Shown here: in pieces, positions 11,401-38,400 of the stretch
How positions within the stretch are numbered: the first letter of the stretch is position 1
Layout: each line of letters starts with the position of its first letter
Origin: Gemmatimonadota bacterium
Lineage (GTDB): Bacteria > Gemmatimonadota > Gemmatimonadetes > Longimicrobiales > Gaopeijiaceae
DNA: 64,000 nucleotides
Direction: 5' to 3'
Assembly: GCA_034521595.1 (NCBI GenBank)
Contig: JAXHMG010000003.1
Coordinates: 1-64,000 of the forward strand
Program-made: the position numbers

Positions 11401-14400
11401 CCTGCAGACTCGTGCGACATCAACGTCCCCGGACTTCGCCAGCAGCCGGTACGGCCGCAACTATGGCGCCAACCCCGGTCGACACGCCAACGAGCAGTCA
11501 GCTTGATGTCGATGCGAACGCCCTCGGCGATCGGGCTGTGGCTTGCGGCGAGCGTCAGGCCCGCAGCTGCGGCGTTTGACCAACTGATCGTGCGCTTGCC
11601 AGGTCTTCCGCACAAGATAGAAGGCAGCGTGCCGATGGCAGTCACTACTGCCGTGGAGATGTCACCGATGCACAACCGAGAAACACGTTTTTTTCCATAA
11701 CAGGCGCGATAGTTTTTGCATGTTGCAGTTGGTTGCTGCAGTAATCGGCGGCTACCCCGTTGTCAATCAATTTGAGATGCTCTTTGCTTGGCGGCTGTCC
11801 ATGCGTCCGAGGAGGCTTCCAGGCGTCGAAGAAGCCTACTTTCCACCTGAGTCGAGCGATTGTCGGTCGCACCTTCGAGCCAGTCGGCCCGGTCAGCCGG
11901 GGCCTGCTAGGGCCTGTTAACACTATCGGGGTGATTGGTTATCTTCATGTATGACCATCACCGAAGAACAGTATCAGCGCATCGAGTGGTGTTTCCCGAA
12001 GCAGCGGGGCAACGTCAAGGTCTCGAACCTGGACGTTCTCAACGCCATCCTCTACGTCGCTGAGCACGGATGCAAATGGCGCGGGATCCCTGAGCGATTC
12101 GGGAACTGGCATACGATCTACACCCGGATGAACCGGTGGGCGAAGGACGGAGTGCTGGACCGTATTTTCACGGCCCTGCAGGAAGAGCAGATCATCCAGA
12201 TCAAGATCGAGGCCCTGTCGATGGACAGCTCGATCGTGAAGGTGCACCCCGATGGAACGGGCGCGGAAAAAAAAACGGCCCGCAAGCCATCGGCAAATCG
12301 AGGGGCGGATGGACCACCAAGATTCATCTGGTTGCCGCAGATGCTCGAAGGGCAGTGACGTTCTCGCTTTCGCCAGGCCAAAACCATGATGCTCCCGAGG
12401 GTCGCGAGCTGCTGCGGAGCCTGCCGCCGCCCGACGAGCCCGTGGCCCTCATCATGGATCGCGCGTACGAGGGCGACAAGACCCGCCAGCTGGCCCTGGA
12501 CCTGGGCTACGTCCCTGTCGTGCCACCGAAGACGAACCGCCTGCACCCCTGGAGCCTCAACGAGGCGCTCTATCGTCGCAGGAACGAGATCGAGCGCTTG
12601 TTCCGGCGACTCAAGGGTTTCCGTAGGATCTTCTCGCGCTTCGACAAGCTCGACGTCATGTTCATCGCCTTCATCCATTTCGCCCTGATCGTCGAGGCCC
12701 TTCGATAGTGTTAACAGGCTCTAGGGCGCCCGCCTGGCGAAAGAGTCGCTCGACATCGGACCAACTCACGGTCCGGCTCCCCCCCCCGAGGGCGTCGAAC
12801 AACCACGCGCGAGCGAGCGTCCAGTCGGATTTCACCGTGCGGGGCGAGACCTCGAGGCCTCCGCGGTGTCTCCGACCGTCATGCCGTCGGAGAGCTTCTA
12901 TTTACCTCCGTTCGGGGTCGTCTTGGTGTCAGCTTGGCTCTGTGTACCGTGCCGTGGAGGCGGTCCGGGGGACCATAAATCGCATAAAGTTTGAATCGGC
13001 TCTCTGCCTGACATTGGTAATGTTGTGCCAGGTTCCGGCGGGGATGAGCGCTGCCGAGTCCGCACCCACTTCTTCGTCAAAGGTCAATCTGATCTTTGCT
13101 TGGACCCATCGGACAAGCGTCCTTCGCCCTGCCGCCAGACGACAGAACCTGGCCGCGGGGGCTCCAGCGCACTTTTTAACCTGGATATCGCCCCCAGCGG
13201 GGATTGCCATCAGTGTTAGCTGGTGTCTCCCCGGTCCAACGTGTTGTGCGAAAATTGTCATTATCGCACATCTTTTTGATATCGACCAGGAGGATTCCGG
13301 TCCATAATCAGTTTTTTCATTCATCATTTTTCTCAGTTGTGCGTGTGATAAATCTGGAGGAGGCGCCCCGCCTCCTCGAGACCGAGGCGGTGGAGATCCT
13401 GCAGCAGGAGCTTGACCCGCCGGTGAGGTACTGGCGGCCGGGCGGGCGCTGAGGACTCCCGGCACCGCGCTGTGAGCGCCGGGCTCACCCGTAACGTAGT
13501 CGCGGGCGACTTCCGGTAGTAGTCCTCGATGAGATGGGCTCGCGCCCCGGATTCGGCCGACATTCTGGTTCAACATCTCCATGCCCGAGTAGTTCCTTCC
13601 CGACAGCCCACCGTACCGCAACACGTTGTCGAAGCCGGCGACACCCCGCCGCAGGGCATCGAAAACCGGGCGGAGCTGTTCGCAGACCGAATTCATCCGA
13701 TCAATCAGGCACGCCTCCTTTGAGGACTGACGAGTTCCTCCAGGAACCGCCTCGAGGCACTGAAGGATGACCGCAGGCCAACACAGCATTCGGATCAACC
13801 GGGAGTCCGTCCTGCTTCCACGGTACCACCGCAGGTCCTGAGGATGTAGAAAATGGCGGCACGACCATAGCTAGGAAGGCGAGAACATGCTCCCCACAAA
13901 CCGACCCCCGACCCATCCCGGTGAGTATGCTCCCGAGAGGAGTTTTCTTCTCAGCCCTTGGGCATGATGAAGATGGCAATCGCCAAGCGTATCGATGTCT
14001 CCTTCCCTCGGTGCGGTAACCTCGAGATCGTGAATGGTCGTCGCGGCATCACACCCGACACGGCCCTCCGCCTCGTCCTCTGGCACGTCGGCGAGTTCTG
14101 GCGAAAACGGTCAGTAAGGTAACTGGGACCTCTGGCACGCCCTCCATTCCGATGCCGCCAAGGAACTTAAGCAGATCGAGCCCGTGGTGGCCTGAGGCCT
14201 ATCTCAGAACACCTCCCGTCCAACTCAGCTGCTGGTTACCCCCTTTTACCCCAGGCTCTATGTCATATAACGTTCAGATGTTTCCGACGTGGCCTACCAT
14301 CAGAACCTCCGGAGCCGGCCACCCGTCATGAATACGGCTTAGACGCCCCCGCCGCCACACACGCTCCGGGCCATGTAGGGGGAGTGAGCGTAGCGAACGG

Positions 14401-35400: not shown

Positions 35401-38400
35401 CCCCGGGGACGACGCGAACGGTGACGGCGGGATCCGTGGCCATGCCCAAGGAAACCACGGGGTCCGGGGCGGTGGCATGGGGCGATCGGACCGTCGGTGG
35501 CTACCCGGTGCGCTCGATCTCTGGCCGTCCGGCGTCCAGGCGCCAGCTCGACGCGGTCGTGACAGGGGCTCCCGGGCGGGTGACGTAGTTGACGGTGCGG
35601 TAGTCGGCCGTCCAGGCATCCCCGGTCACGCTGCAGCGCACGTAGCCGCGGCGGCTGTTCTGCCAACGGACGTGGGGGTTGTCGCTCATCGCCTCCCGCA
35701 CGGAGTCGAACATGTCCGCTCCGTCTCCGTTCGAGCTGATCGAGGTGCCGACGAGCTCGGCTCCGATGACGGGGCGGTCGGGGCGGTCGTAGCCGGCGTG
35801 GAGATCGTTGACCCAGTTCGAGTGGCTGTCGCCGGTGAGCACGACGGTCCGGCCCGGCGCTGCGTCGGCGAGGGTCTGGAGCAGTCGGTCCCGGGCCACG
35901 GGGTATCCACTCCACTGATCCATGGATGTGACCACGTCCGAACCGGGGTCACGGTCGAAGGGCGCCATCATGATCTGTTGCGCGAGGACTTGCCAGGTGA
36001 CGCCGTCGCGGCCGAGCTGGCGGGTGAGCCACCGTTCCTGCGCGGTCCCGAGCATGGTCCGCCCCGCGTCGTTCCAGTCGCCGCACGGCACCTCGCGCCT
36101 GCCGTCGCCGCATGCCTGGTCGCTTCGGTACTGGCGCGTGTCGAGCGTGTGGAACGCCGCGGTGCGGCCCCATCGGAAGGAGCGCCAAATGGTGAGGTCG
36201 GCCCAGGAGCCCGGCCGAGGGATGCGCACCGGCTGGTGCTCCCACCAGGCCTGATAGGCGGCGGCCCGGCGGGCGCGCATGCGTTCGACGTCTTCGGGGT
36301 CGTGCTCCCCGACGAGATCGGCGTAGTTGTTGTCGACCTCGTGGTCGTCCCAGGTGACGATCCAGGGGCAGAGGGCGTGCGCGGCTTGCAGCGCGGGATC
36401 CTCCTTGTACTGCGCGTAACGGCGTCGGTAATCCTCGAGGGTGACGATCTCCGGGCCGTGGTGCGCGCGCACCTGGTTCTCCCCGGTCCCGTATTCGTAG
36501 ATGTAGTCGCCGAGATGCGCGACGAGATCGAGGTCCTCGCGGGCCAGGTGCTCGTAGGCGGTGAAGAGCCCCTGCTCGAAGTGCTGGCACGACGCGAACG
36601 CGAGATCGAGCCGGGCGTCCGTGCCGGTGCGGGGCGCGGTGCGGAGGCGTCCGACGGGGCTGTTGCCGTCCGCGAGATGGAAGCGGTAGAAGTACCATCG
36701 GTCGGGCTCGAGACCGTCCACATCGACGTGCACGGAGTATCCGAGCTCGGGCACGGCCGTATGCCGACCTTGCCGAACGACCCGAGCGAAGCCCTCGTCG
36801 CGGGCGACCTCCCAGTCGATGACGGTTCGCGTCCCATCCATGCCGCCGTGCTCCTCGAACGGAGCGGGCGCGAGTCGGGTCCAGATCACGCATCGGTCCG
36901 GGAGGGGGTCGCCGGAACCGACACCGAGTGTGAACGGATCTCCGTCGAGGCGCGGCCGCGACGTCACGCGCCACATGCCGGGCACACCCGCGCAAAGGAC
37001 GGCGTAGCGCGTGAGATCGGCCAGGAAGTTGCGGCGGTCCATGGGAGCCTCCTTGCAGTCGAGGAGAGGAGTGGGCTGTGGTACCCCGCGACCCTACGTC
37101 TCCGGCGGCTTCGTCGGCTTGGTCCAGATGAAGGTCAGCCCCCAGACGACCAGCACGACGGTGAGCCCCTTGGTCCATCGGGGTGCGGCGCTGAACAGGA
37201 TCATGTAGCCCACCAGCGGCACGATGGTGGCCGTCGCGAGGATCTTGGCGCGGAGGCGGATGACGTGGTGCCGCTCCCAATCCCGGATCATCGGGCCGAA
37301 GCGGGGGTGCTCGAGCAGCCGTGTGTGCAGCCGCTTCGAGCCCTTCGAGAAGCACCAGGCCGCGACCAGCACGAGAGGCGTGGTGGGGATGACGGGCAGG
37401 AACGCCCCGACGATGCCGAGTCCGAGCGCGGCCCATCCGCCGGCGATCCACGCCCAGCGGGTCGTGCGCGTGCCCATGCCTCCGAAGCGCCCTCTCCGGG
37501 ACTCGAGCGGAGGGCTCGGGGATGCGCGTGAGCGTGGCGTGTTCGAGTCGGGCACCATGTCCGTATACTAGCTTCCGCGCTCCTCCAGCACATTCGCGAT
37601 CTCGTCGAACCCGACGCCCGCCGCTCGGGCCGCGACGAGGACGTGGTAGACGAGGTCGGCGGCTTCCTCGGGGATGCGGTCCGCCTCGTTCTTGGCAAGG
37701 GCGGTCACGAGCTCCGCGCACTCTTCCCCGAGCTTCTTGAGGCGGAGGTTCTCGTCGGTGAGGAGCTTCACGGTGTAGCTGCCCTCGGGACGCTGGGCGG
37801 CGCGGTCGGCGAGGACGGCGTCGAGGCGGGCGAGGACGGACTCGGCGGGCGGTGAGCCCGGCTGAGCGGACGCCGGCCCGGAACCTTCTCCGAAGCAGGT
37901 CGCTTCCCCGGTGTGGCAGGCCGGTCCCTCCTGCCGCACGACGGCGAGCACCGTATCCGCGTCGCAGTCGCCGTGCAGGCTCACGACGTGCTGCACGTGG
38001 CCGGACGTATCGCCTTTGCGCCAGATCTCGCTGCGCGAGCGGGACCAGTAGTGCATGCGTCCGGAATCGAGCGAGCGCGCGAGCGCGTCGCGGTTGGCGT
38101 AGGCGACCATCAGCACCGCGCCGGTGCGGGCGTCCTGGGCCACGACGGGCACCAGGCCGTCCGCCTTGTCGAAGTCGATGGCGTCGAGGTCTGCGGGGGT
38201 GCGGAGCGTTCGGTCGGTCATGGTTGCTCTTCGCGTTGATCTTCGATGGGGTGTCGGGATGGGGTCGTGAGGTCGGGGCCGTCGCGAAACCACGCCATGC
38301 GTCGGATGGCGGGCAAGTCGACACGGCCGCCGCGGGGCACGGCGAGGAGGTCGGGATCCTCGTACCACGGTTCGTCGAGCAGATCCATGAATACGGGGAG

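What a model noticed while it worked through the whole genome (the two positions that open the first line are those of the whole stretch)
14246..35458. Cassette array with long attC sites beside an integron-type integrase that lacks the IntI insertion and has a HARP-like [...]
A chromosomal array of 165-195-nt attC-type repeats (15 in C3:14246-32712, 32 in the genome), separated by short ORFs that are partly toxin-antitoxin pairs, ends at a 399-aa tyrosine recombinase (C3:34259-35458, minus strand). This protein belongs to the integron-integrase clade but lacks the IntI-specific insertion. It carries a conserved ~85-residue N-terminal domain related to HARP domains of annealing helicases. The same gene with homologous attC arrays on its 3' side recurs in four other Gemmatimonadota genomes. 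One relative has the domain fused to a full IntI.
Evidence so far: attC alignment with covarying inner boxes. 32 nhmmer hits. Pfam hits among the ORFs between sites. TIGR02249 scores 213.5 bits, below the 265 cut-off, with profile positions 175-234 unmatched. 25 residues against 67 in 2A3V. No IntI above the cut-off in the genome. The N-terminal profile gives 143 hits; of 32 scanned, 15 are recombinases and 13 have a Pfam HARP hit, two with both. hhalign 74%, E 2.8e-5. The domain occurs in 11 of 400 other genomes of the phylum. Arrays lie beside the gene in G138, G473, G169 and L023. The G175 protein is HARP-like plus a full IntI at 325 bits. In the tree the clade is 100/100 apart from the group holding own XerC/D. 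Cassettes are shared between genera.
(Added by a program. Inside this text positions count along the whole contig: contig position 1 is position 1 of the stretch shown here. "Call 12" and the like, gene names such as g00115 and contig names such as C1 are that model's own, and its searches are not shown. The text may have been shortened before it was handed on; [...] marks where a part breaks off. The agent that wrote the report below was given it as the finding of a first reader that could run no searches.)

Follow-up and report, generated by a model that had tools for sequence, protein, structure and literature searches.

The report
Integron with an unusual HARP-tagged integrase
This is a chromosomal gene-cassette array of the integron kind whose recombinase lacks the insertion thought to define integron integrases, carries a fork-binding-type extra domain instead, and pairs with unusually long, branched recombination sites, so it offers a natural test of how integrons recognise folded DNA.

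Summary
Window 14263-32697 carries 15 copies of a 153-174-nt attC-type palindrome. It ends beside a 399-aa tyrosine recombinase (34259-35458, minus). That protein lacks the IntI insertion: 25 residues stand where VchIntIA has 67, and TIGR02249 scores 213.5 against a cut-off of 265.

New evidence links the recombinase to the array. An exact cassette duplicate fixes the crossover at AAC|GTT and places an attI-type junction at 34028/34029, 230 nt after the stop codon.

The attC fold is supported by covariation (92% of cells paired against 32-45% in slid controls). It is branched, with a side hairpin where classical sites have single extrahelical bases.

Orthologous genes have such arrays on their 3' side in 6 of 6 loci with enough sequence. 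Genomes that also hold a classical IntI keep a separate array of ~90-116-nt canonical attC beside it. The G000-type attC motif is frequent only in the 4 genomes that carry this recombinase, out of 401 searched.

The N-terminal domain is HARP-related (hhalign 93%; 51 of 146 profile hits carry Pfam HARP).

In the tree the clade is sister to IntI, not inside it. I read this as a new integron variant. No recombination was shown, and the role of the HARP-like domain is inferred.

The parts
34259..35458 (-). Tyrosine recombinase of 399 aa, the proposed integrase of the array. Catalytic residues are R255, K280, H345, R348, H371 and Y380.
   Evidence: Translation; Pfam; NCBIfam. The catalytic positions are invariant or nearly invariant among 77 homologues. 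The AF2 model has mean pLDDT 80.7. The best structural matches are 2a3v (E 3.6e-16), then XerA 4a8e.
35222..35425 (-). N-terminal HARP-like domain, residues 12-79, with secondary-structure order strand-strand-helix-strand-strand-helix-strand.
   Evidence: AF2 of the domain alone: pLDDT 91.5. Weak Pfam HARP hits in 22 of 50 homologues but none for the own protein. Profile search: 51 of 146 hits carry HARP and 12 carry SNF2. hhalign 93.1%. Fold hits are weak: XPB DRD Z 5.4, UvsW Z 4.8, SMARCAL1 HARP at Foldseek rank 8.
35120..35200 (-). Variable, probably disordered linker (residues 87-113).
   Evidence: pLDDT under 50. Length varies among homologues.
34505..34585 (-). Place of the missing IntI-specific insertion (residues 292-318).
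   Evidence: 25 residues face 67 in 2A3V. TIGR02249 positions 175-234 are unmatched. The model shows only a short loop between helices 291-303 and 322-335.
34029..34258 (-). attI-type region between the stop codon and the first cassette. The crossover lies at 34028/34029. On the minus strand it reads ...GGAAATAAACA|GTTATGGG.
   Evidence: The 100% duplicate 21280-21413 = 33895-34028 stops right after ...CATAAC. An inverted repeat ATCAACGT/ACGTTGAT lies at 34042-34091. A metagenome contig ends exactly at 34028.
32543..34027 (-). Cassette 1: a 396-aa ORF of unknown family (32771-33961) followed by its attC (32537-32694).
   Evidence: ORF; no Pfam hit. Both ends coincide with the G|TT boundaries of the second copy.
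17552..21412 (-). Second copy of cassette 1, interrupted by an IS21-family element at 18834-21194.
   Evidence: 97-100% identical blocks. The insert borders have a CCGA duplication and TGTC...GACA ends. IstB matches at 6.3e-78.
14263..32697 (-). Array of 15 long attC sites; the top strand is the minus strand. Plus-strand coordinates: 14265-14423, 15561-15734, 16608-16748 (5' box not matched), 17546-17704, 21407-21561, 22601-22759, 23521-23675, 24086-24241, 25152-25308, 27877-28036, 28885-29037, 29762-29918, 30920-31080, 31919-32079, 32537-32694.
   Evidence: Single-strand DNA folds. Covariation.
22854..23515 (-). ParE/Phd toxin-antitoxin cassette, shared with the array of another genus (G249).
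   Evidence: Pfam. tblastx gives 69-89% amino-acid identity to L064 13200-13753.
31164..31849 (+). Gp49(HigB-like)/HTH cassette, shared with G249. A degraded copy lies at 15825-16429.
   Evidence: Pfam. tblastx gives 77-79% to L064 14129-14815. Duplicates D7, D8 and D17.
16870..17477 (+). HigB/HTH_3 toxin-antitoxin cassette.
   Evidence: Pfam. Homologues exist in L065 and inside the classical integron L104.
28100..29027 (-). HepT/MNT (HEPN-nucleotidyltransferase) toxin-antitoxin cassette.
   Evidence: Pfam.
1528..1688 (-). A further attC of the same family, separated from the main array by IS debris. The array probably goes on across the contig start into C1.
   Evidence: nhmmer. C1 hits at 739-891 and 3602-3747 lie in the matching orientation. 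A 3'-box motif also occurs at 609-632.

Best explanation
This is a sedentary chromosomal integron of a non-canonical type.

ORGANISATION. The recombinase gene (34259-35458) is read in the same direction as the cassettes. About 230 nt after its stop codon lies an attI-type site with the crossover at G|TT (34028/34029). Then come cassettes on the minus strand, each ending in a 153-174-nt attC.

PROPOSED MECHANISM.
1. The plus strand (bottom strand) of an attC folds on itself. The fold has an R box (ATAAC/GTTAT), an unpaired spacer, a 9-bp L box, a second 8-bp helix, a variable tip, and a short side hairpin. The side hairpin branches off the 3' arm between the L box and the second helix. Classical attC sites have single extrahelical bases at that place.
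2. The recombinase has a full catalytic set but lacks the I2 insertion that classical IntI uses to hold those bases. It cuts in AA|C of the R box, exchanges one strand with attI or another attC, and replication resolves the product.
3. I propose that the N-terminal HARP-like domain reads the branch point or the single/double-strand junction of the folded site. Its relatives sit on annealing and fork-remodelling helicases. In this role it would supply the strand choice and asymmetry that I2 plus extrahelical bases supply elsewhere.

WHAT IS SHOWN: the sites, their covarying fold, the exact cassette boundaries, the missing insertion, the HARP relationship, and the recurrent, specific pairing of this recombinase with long branched sites.

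WHAT IS INFERRED: that this recombinase catalyses the events, that the substrate is single-stranded, and what the HARP-like domain does.
For: SITES AND FOLD
- 15 sites in the array and 30 in the genome.
- On 43 sites from 6 genomes, 29 pairs are 92.3% paired against 31.6-44.6% when the partners are slid. 16 pairs show compensatory change. The covariation score is 0.338 against 0.021-0.063 slid, and 0 of 500 shuffles reach it.

CASSETTE BOUNDARIES
- A duplicated cassette is identical up to ...CATAAC at 34028/21413 and from TAAC at 32540/17549. That is exactly between the two G|TT points. One copy abuts the recombinase-proximal unique sequence.

RECOMBINASE
- Catalytic residues are conserved.
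- The insertion is absent.
- The nearest solved structure is VchIntIA.
- The tree gives a superclade with IntI at SH-aLRT 100, separated from XerC/D-like proteins by a branch of 0.91. The clade itself has support 96 and is sister to IntI at 82.
- The genome has no classical IntI.

RECURRENCE
- 14 of 400 other genomes of the phylum have an orthologue at E<=1e-80.
- Arrays of 150-170-nt repeats lie on the 3' side, same strand, in L064, L065, L066, L067, L068 and L002. None were found in the 5' flanks L069-L073.

SPECIFICITY
- G355 and G301 hold both recombinases. The classical IntI has ~90-116-nt canonical attC that the long-site HMM does not match.
- The G000-type 3'-box motif occurs 5 or more times only in G000 (20), G355 (24), G249 (10) and G301 (7), and at most 3 times in the other 397 genomes.
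- Three unrelated long-site families (G000 type, L002 types, L067 type) all fold with the side hairpin. Three classical sites fold as simple bulged hairpins.

HARP-LIKE DOMAIN.
Against: - No recombination product, circle or alternative junction was seen, and nothing was tested at the bench.
- The one protein that joins the HARP-like domain to a full IntI (L132) sits beside a canonical 114-nt attC. The domain therefore does not need branched sites and need not replace I2.
- The own protein has no direct Pfam HARP hit.
- Fold matches are weak: Foldseek gives no hit at E<=0.001, and Z is at most 5.4.
- Related short recombinases without the domain lie inside or beside classical integrons of Acidobacteriota (L005, L009). 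A short IntI-like recombinase near an array is therefore not always its integrase.
- Six of the 14 genomes with an orthologue also carry a classical IntI.
- Published work found the IntI insertion necessary for activity. I saw only the title of Messier and Roy 2001 in a reference list, plus passages of PMC4792948. Published work also concluded that recombinases without it near attC are not IntI (passage of PMC4889954).
- The sister position to IntI has only 82% SH-aLRT support in a quick tree.
Confidence: 0.7

Rival explanations
1. The recombinase is the array's integrase, but the HARP-like domain does not read the attC branch. Instead it takes the enzyme to replication forks or single-strand gaps, where attC sites can fold and where the half-exchanged product must be replicated. 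Alternatively it is regulatory. The side hairpin would then be read by the core domains.
For: - The domain also occurs on a full IntI beside a canonical attC.
- It occurs in 3-4 tandem copies on other recombinases.
- A long disordered linker of variable length separates it from the core.
- HARP relatives sit on SNF2 fork-remodelling helicases. Their fork binding is recalled, not read here.
- The array's bottom strand is the lagging-strand template.
Against: All three long-site families beside N-domain short recombinases share the side hairpin, and the classical sites examined do not. This pairing is not explained by fork targeting alone. The fusion to a full IntI is a single case.
Confidence: 0.3
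2. The array is a leftover cluster of attC sites (a CALIN) from a classical integron whose IntI was lost. The neighbouring recombinase would then be a Xer-like or mobile-element enzyme with another task.
For: - The region is full of IS remains.
- Classical IntI is common in the phylum (165 of 401).
- Short recombinases occur inside classical Acidobacteriota integrons.
- IntegronFinder's rule would call this a CALIN (passages).
Against: - Gene, strand and side are the same in 6 of 6 loci from different genera.
- The unique junction lies right beside the gene.
- The long-site motif is missing from genomes that have only the classical IntI.
- In G355 and G301 the classical IntI keeps a different attC type.
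- G000 has its own XerC/D-like genes elsewhere.
Confidence: 0.08
3. The enzyme works on double-stranded sites like Xer on dif. The palindromes would be paired binding sites, not folded single strands, and cassettes would move by ordinary two-step exchange.
For: - Without I2, an engineered IntI shifts towards double-strand activity. I saw only the abstract listing of PMC7790495 and passages of PMC4792948.
- Covariation in a palindrome cannot by itself tell a folded strand from a duplex with symmetric contacts.
Against: - The two arms are unequal: a 35-40-nt branch with its own covarying hairpin sits on one arm only. That has no role in a plain duplex.
- G-T pairs occur in the plus strand (15 G-U cells at columns 20/175 and 31/123, 11 at 137/159). 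On the other strand these would be A-C mismatches.
- All 28 sites on C3 share one orientation.
Confidence: 0.07

Closest known systems
Classical integrons: IntI (TIGR02249; VchIntIA, PDB 2A3V) with attI and attC cassettes
   Same: - Tyrosine recombinase closest to IntI in sequence and fold.
- attC sites with R and L boxes and the crossover at G|TT.
- Cassettes of 0.6-2.7 kb, many of them toxin-antitoxin pairs.
- An attI-type junction beside the gene.
- A large chromosomal array.
   Different: - No I2 insertion, and a score below the family cut-off.
- An extra N-terminal HARP-like domain.
- attC of 153-174 nt against 106-119 nt for three classical sites of the same phylum.
- A branched fold with a side hairpin instead of single bulged bases.
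- The clade is sister to IntI, not inside it.
Integrons with the integrase gene co-directional with the cassettes (the 'inverted' group described for Treponema and others; recalled, not read here)
   Same: The array lies on the 3' side of the gene and on the same strand. The classical IntI loci of this phylum that I examined (L104, L105, L134) are arranged the same way.
   Different: As far as I recall, those integrases carry the IntI insertion and canonical attC sites.
CALIN (clusters of attC sites lacking an integron integrase), Cury et al. 2016, PMC4889954
   Same: By the published rule (PF00589 plus the intI_Cterm profile) this locus has no IntI and would be filed as a CALIN (passages).
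   Different: A dedicated IntI-related recombinase sits at the attI end in every locus examined. That paper found only four intermediate recombinases, each with fewer than three attC sites. Here there are 15 or more.
XerC/D at dif, and single-strand integration of CTX phage by XerCD
   Same: A tyrosine recombinase without I2 acts on a folded single strand (discussion passage of PMC4792948).
   Different: - The genome has separate XerC/D-like genes.
- The tree separates them at support 100.
- The sites here are arrayed cassette ends, not a single dif.
HARP domains of SMARCAL1-type annealing helicases (Pfam PF07443), the XPB damage-recognition domain and the UvsW N-domain
   Same: - A profile of the recombinase domain finds HARP/SNF2 proteins.
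- hhalign gives 93.1% over the Pfam HARP stretch.
- The best fold matches are the XPB DRD, the UvsW N-domain and SMARCAL1 HARP.
   Different: - It is attached to a recombinase, not a helicase.
- The own protein is below the Pfam threshold.
- Structural scores are weak.
- No paper in the library links HARP with a tyrosine recombinase or an integron.

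Membership tests
Integron integrase (IntI) | Tyrosine recombinase fold with the catalytic set R-K-H-R-H-Y | tested here: met
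   Pfam. R255, K280, H345, R348, H371 and Y380 are invariant or nearly so in 77 homologues. Fold.
Integron integrase (IntI) | IntI-specific additional domain (I2 helix; TIGR02249 positions about 175-234; intI_Cterm) | tested here: not met
   25 residues face 67 in 2A3V. Profile positions 175-234 are unmatched. The model shows a short loop.
Integron integrase (IntI) | Score over the curated cut-off of TIGR02249 (265 bits) | tested here: not met
   213.5 bits. XerA NF040815 scores 210.1 against a cut-off of 220.
Integron integrase (IntI) | Placement inside the IntI clade | tested here: not met
   It is sister to the clade of 16 insertion-bearing IntI (82% SH-aLRT) within a superclade at 100%. 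The 73-row tree gave a trichotomy.
Integron (system) | Array of attC sites with R''/L''/L'/R' boxes and an imperfect palindrome | tested here: met
Integron (system) | Single extrahelical bases on the '' arm of the folded bottom strand | tested here: not met
   The L box pairs without bulges. A covarying side hairpin branches from that arm instead.
Integron (system) | attI beside the integrase gene, with the crossover at G|TT | tested here: met
   The junction at 34028/34029 is fixed by the exact duplicate. That it is a working attI is inferred.
Integron (system) | Integrase-catalysed excision and integration of cassettes | not testable with these tools
   Only indirect evidence: a cassette is present twice with exact boundaries.
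XerC/XerD | Orthology with the chromosome-dimer resolvases | tested here: not met
   Scores of 192.8 and 188.8 lie far under cut-offs of about 330. The genome's own Xer-like genes sit at C3:1178467-1179414 and C3:609590-610516 on the other side of a 100% branch.
HARP domain (Pfam PF07443) | Match over Pfam's gathering score | tested here: not met
   No hit for the own protein. 22 of 50 homologues hit weakly, best E 0.003.
HARP domain (Pfam PF07443) | Profile-level homology with proven HARP regions | tested here: met
   51 of 146 top profile hits carry Pfam HARP, best E 4.1e-15. The matched stretches overlap Pfam's. hhalign 93.1%, E 3.1e-7.
HARP domain (Pfam PF07443) | Same fold as the solved SMARCAL1 HARP (4O66) | tested here: inconclusive
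   4o66 is at Foldseek rank 8 with E 0.14 and TM 0.43. XPB DRD gives Z 5.4 and UvsW Z 4.8.
CALIN | At least two attC sites with no IntI (PF00589 plus intI_Cterm) nearby | not tested
   IntegronFinder was not available. By its published rule the locus would qualify, if its model finds these long sites.

The most novel reading that the evidence does not exclude
These elements are a second, independent solution to recombining folded single-stranded cassette sites. A fork- or junction-binding HARP-type domain reads a three-way junction built into the attC. It does the job that the I2 helix and extrahelical bases do in all integrons studied so far. Because the clade is sister to IntI, it may preserve, or run parallel to, the pre-I2 stage of integron evolution.
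Probability: 0.3. Interest if true: 0.9.

Novelty: new variant of a known kind. Interest (0 to 1): 0.8.

Why it matters
The insertion that this recombinase lacks is treated as the defining feature of integron integrases, and as necessary for their activity. Search programs require it, so loci like this one are filed as orphan attC clusters.

This lineage pairs an insertion-less, IntI-related enzyme with large arrays across several genera. That would widen what counts as an integron. It could explain some orphan clusters. It also gives a natural experiment on how folded DNA is recognised and how integrases arose from Xer-like enzymes.

The HARP-like domain on recombinases is unreported in the library searched. 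It points to a reusable module for reading DNA structure.

Tried and rejected
- EARLIER FINDINGS.
- SEQUENCING RUNS. No RNA holder was listed. Laying the contigs of three runs of one study on 14260-34259 gave no joints. The contigs simply break at the attC sites, and the loose ends at 31077 and 32527 lie at repeat borders, so they cannot be read as rearrangements.
- FOLDSEEK ON THE DOMAIN. It gave no match at E<=0.001.
- SYNTENY. PhoD, HisIE and HisF of the window were not found within about 5.5 kb upstream of the gene in five other genomes or in the other loci tried. The chromosomal place is therefore not conserved.
- PROMOTER AND TERMINATOR SCAN. In 33900-35600 the scan found no promoter-like site and one terminator-like site at chance level.
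- TREES. A careful IQ-TREE run gave no answer. The trees reported are quick ones.
- PFAM SIZE LIMIT. A Pfam scan of 148 hits exceeded the size limit and was repeated with 146.
- HARP LITERATURE. Passages on the HARP structure were not obtained. One hit was a withdrawn preprint, another paper held only reference-list lines, and PMC3128281 is not held. What I say about HARP binding forked DNA is recalled.
- REP/MITE READING. I rejected reading the repeats as REP or MITE elements. They bound cassettes exactly at AAC|GTT, and they co-occur with one recombinase.
- SUPPLEMENTS. Supplements of the papers cited were not opened. Supplementary Figure S1 of PMC4889954 may show relatives of this clade.

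Full report
1. THE OBSERVATION

The window is the first 64 kb of contig C3 of a 3.49-Mb genome in three contigs.

Repeats. The repeat finder on 12000-37000 returned families of 12-13 copies. They share ...ATAACGTTCAGATGTTTCCGACGTGGCC... at one end and ...CCGGAAACATnCTTGTTAT... at the other. Measured from box to box, 14 sites are 153-174 nt long. An HMM of 13 of them found 30 hits in the genome at E<=1e-3:
- 15 in 14266-32693;
- one at 1532-1683;
- two near the start of C1;
- 12 scattered on C3 between 0.33 and 1.96 Mb.

All 28 hits on C3 are on one strand.

Composition. The array is poorer in G+C (0.58-0.65) than the side that holds the recombinase (0.68-0.74).

ORFs between sites. Pfam finds ParE/Phd, HigB/HTH, two Gp49/HTH, HepT/MNT, DUF6932/HTH, SnoaL and an IstB of IS21. 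Coding runs on both strands (97 ORFs scanned).

2. WHICH STRAND, AND WHERE THE ARRAY BEGINS

Two blocks between the last attC and the recombinase gene are copies of array sequence. Block 32650-33817 matches 17660-18833 at 97-99%. Block 33814-34028 matches 21198-21413 at 100%.

Laid side by side, the identity on the right stops immediately after ...CATAAC (34028 = 21413). After that, one copy runs into an attC (GTTCAGATG...). The other runs into unique sequence (TGTTTATTTCC...). On the left, identity begins at TAAC (32540 = 17549) and the preceding bases differ.

So one cassette is present twice, bounded on both sides by the AAC|GTT of an R box. On the minus strand it has the canonical order: TT-start, ORF (32771-33961, 396 aa, no Pfam hit), attC, G. 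The minus strand is therefore the top strand.

The array starts at 34028, and the 230 nt up to the stop codon of the recombinase (34259) is an attI-type region. It reads ...GGAAATAAACA|GTTATGGG on the minus strand. It also holds an L-box-like TTTCCGA and an 8-bp inverted repeat.

The inner copy of the cassette is split by a 2.36-kb IS21-family element with a CCGA target duplication.

In four of seven orthologous loci examined (L068, L001, L065 and, less clearly, L002), a GTTAT lies 170-460 nt after the stop codon. This is suggestive only.

Upstream of the gene lie phoD, 42 nt away, and the his operon, all on the same strand. Between 1689 and 14262 there are only IS remains and gene fragments.

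3. THE attC FOLD

As single-strand DNA, most sites fold with a 6-bp R box, a small asymmetric loop, a 9-11-bp L box and a multibranch interior.

After two rounds of nhmmer, homologous full-length sites were found in G000 (23), G355 (11), G249 (7), G301 (7), G379 (3) and L002 (1). I aligned 43 of these 52 sites: 14 from the window and 29 from the five other genomes.

RNAalifold predicted 22 pairs, 13 of them with compensatory changes. I then tested a 29-pair structure: R box, L box, a second helix and a side hairpin.
- 92.3% of cells pair, against 31.6-44.6% with the partners slid by 1-3 columns.
- 16 pairs have changes on both sides.
- The covariation score is 0.338, against 0.021-0.063 slid.
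- No shuffle of 500 reached the observed pairing or covariation score.

The shuffles ignore relatedness, so the slid control is the fairer one.

On the 5' arm of the bottom strand, the L box and the second helix are contiguous. On the 3' arm they are separated by 35-40 nt that contain the covarying hairpin. This is the arm that carries the extrahelical bases in classical sites (passage of PMC4792948; which arm it is I recall).

Two further repeat families beside orthologous genes (L002 types, L067 type) are 156-171 nt. They are unrelated in sequence, yet fold with the same side hairpin. Three attC sites beside classical IntI genes of the phylum are 106-119 nt and fold as single bulged hairpins.

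4. THE RECOMBINASE

Domains and scores. It has Phage_int_SAM_4 and Phage_integrase domains. TIGR02249 is its best NCBIfam match at 213.5 bits, under the cut-off of 265. XerA follows closely at 210.1, under its cut-off of 220.

The missing insertion. The IntI profile is matched in two pieces, 1-174 and 235-315. Against VchIntIA, 25 residues stand where the chain has 67. The AF2 model (pLDDT 80.7) shows only a loop there.

Nearest structures. The closest solved structures are VchIntIA (E 3.6e-16) and archaeal XerA (2.1e-15).

Catalytic residues are conserved.

Tree. I took the core region of 97 distinct recombinases from the loci and the genome. Locus L074, from an unpublished genome, was left out.
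- In a 73-row tree I kept 12 of 36 distant Xer-like rows. The short N-domain proteins (19 rows, support 96), the insertion-bearing IntI (35 rows, support 100) and four short Acidobacteriota proteins formed a trichotomy. That trichotomy was separated at 100 from the XerC/D-like rows.
- In a 53-row tree I dropped the insertion columns, thinned IntI to 15 rows plus L132, and removed one long-branch row (L009_8787). The superclade again had 100, with a branch of 0.91. The short clade had 96 and IntI 100. The two were sisters at 82, with the Acidobacteriota proteins outside.

Both are quick trees. The root is assumed to lie on the Xer side. The protein is thus IntI's nearest relative, not a member.

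5. THE N-TERMINAL DOMAIN

Residues 12-79 are conserved in more than 120 full-length homologues, mostly from Gemmatimonadota metagenome bins.

Pfam. Pfam HARP does not hit the own protein. It hits 22 of 50 homologues weakly, best E 0.003.

Fold. The domain alone folds with pLDDT 91.5. Fold matches are weak but of one kind: XPB damage-recognition domain (Z 5.4 and 5.2), T4 UvsW N-domain (Z 4.8) and SMARCAL1 HARP (Foldseek rank 8, E 0.14).

Profile search. A profile of 12 recombinase domains found 1494 proteins at E<=0.001 among 1.84 billion representatives. Of 146 of the top 150 that I scanned:
- 51 carry Pfam HARP (best E 4.1e-15);
- 48 carry SAM_4;
- 32 carry Phage_integrase;
- 12 carry SNF2.

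In two SNF2 proteins the matched stretch overlaps Pfam's HARP stretch. hhalign of the profile against one of them gives 93.1%, E 3.1e-7.

Some recombinases carry three or four tandem copies of the domain.

6. RECURRENCE AND SPECIFICITY

Distribution. In 400 other genomes of the phylum, 14 have an orthologue at E<=1e-80. 18 have the domain at E<=5e-9. Many of these genes sit at contig ends with the 3' end facing the end, as expected if repeats follow.

Arrays beside the gene. All five large-contig loci and L002 have arrays of 150-170-nt repeats on the 3' side, on the gene's strand. None of the five 5' flanks has any.

Classical IntI in the phylum. It is over the cut-off in 165 of 401 genomes, but in only 7 of 69 genomes of the window's own family, and not in G000. 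These tallies include three genomes flagged unpublished.

Genomes with both recombinases. G355 and G301 have both. Their classical IntI genes carry arrays of canonical ~90-116-nt attC, also on the 3' side, and the long-site HMM does not match them even at E<=1.

Motif test. A degenerate motif of the G000-type 3' box occurs 20, 24, 10 and 7 times in G000, G355, G249 and G301. It occurs at most 3 times in each of the other 397 genomes. The motif covers one attC family only.

Domain and classical IntI. The domain HMM hits none of the 29 classical IntI loci L075-L103. One protein, G308:C178, joins it to a full IntI (TIGR02249 325.4 bits in one stretch). Its 3' side holds a canonical 114-nt attC and a half site.

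Shared cassettes. Two toxin-antitoxin cassettes are shared with G249 at 69-89% amino-acid identity. A third has homologues in both array types of G355.

7. READING

The simplest account is an integron in which a sister lineage of IntI, without I2, serves long branched attC sites.

That the enzyme does so is inferred from four things: its position, its orientation, the co-occurrence, and the exact cassette duplicate at its attI.

That the HARP-like domain reads the branch is a hypothesis. It rests on the pairing of three branched site families with this architecture, and on what HARP relatives do (recalled). The single fusion to a full IntI beside a canonical site argues for a more general role, such as fork or gap targeting.

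Metagenome contigs gave no rearrangement evidence.

8. WHAT IS IN PRINT

Searches for 'HARP domain' with 'tyrosine recombinase' found no paper. Searches for 'HARP' with 'integron' found 8 papers, none of whose listed titles and abstract openings concern this subject. Searches on CALIN and novel integrases listed nothing that describes such a lineage (listings only).

A review lists Gemmatimonadota among phyla with integrons (passage of PMC8618304). Cury et al. 2016 concluded that recombinases without intI_Cterm near attC are not IntI (passage).

Supplements were not read.

Noticed in passing
window 18834-21194: An IS21-family element of about 2.36 kb sits inside the inner copy of cassette 1. 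It has a 4-bp target duplication (CCGA) and TGTC...GACA ends. Its istB is intact, but istA appears only as ORF fragments.
   Followed up: partly
window 1689-14262: A 12.6-kb stretch between two attC sites holds only transposase remains (Mutator, IS3 rve, IstB, IS4/5) and broken genes (histidine kinase, a split amino-acid permease, an AhpC fragment). It looks like an IS graveyard inside the array.
   Followed up: partly
G000 C3 0.33-1.96 Mb and C1 739-3747: There are 14 further attC sites outside the window, single or in small groups (1010-1025 kb, 1505-1518 kb). All those on C3 lie on the same strand as the main array. GC skew puts the origin near 2.90 Mb and the terminus near 1.16 Mb. The bottom strand of the main array is therefore the lagging-strand template. 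As far as I recall, large chromosomal integrons have the opposite arrangement.
   Followed up: partly
L104 (G355:C1:1312400-1332399), L105 (G301:C10:591900-611899), L134: Classical IntI genes of this phylum also have their arrays on the 3' side, co-directional with the gene. Classical IntI is over the cut-off in 165 of 401 genomes of the phylum, which looks like an unusually high share.
   Followed up: partly
proteins P0124, P0128, P0133, P0159: These are tyrosine recombinases of 590-789 aa with three or four tandem copies of the HARP-like domain in front of SAM_4 and the catalytic domain. Their origin and sites are unknown.
   Followed up: no
L005 9902-10807 (+) and 19595-20677 (-); L009 8787-9761 and 9944-10921; L078 3-1370 and 1201-2442: Short recombinases lie beside or within 9 kb of a classical IntI in other phyla. 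Those of L004, L005 and L045 belong to the IntI superclade but lack both the insertion and the HARP-like domain. The L078 one groups with the genome's own XerC/D-like gene.
   Followed up: partly
window 32771-33961 (-) and its split copy at 17905-19166: The first cassette encodes a 396-aa protein with no Pfam match. It is the only cassette present twice.
   Followed up: no
window 35459-35500: Only 42 nt separate the recombinase start from the end of phoD on the same strand, and no promoter-like site was found. The gene may be read through from phoD. No LexA-type site was looked for.
   Followed up: no
window 25308-27877: The largest cassette (2.7 kb) holds overlapping long ORFs on both strands (26047-27702 plus strand, 26068-27399 minus strand). 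The plus-strand ORF has only a faint trypsin-like hit (E 8e-4).
   Followed up: no
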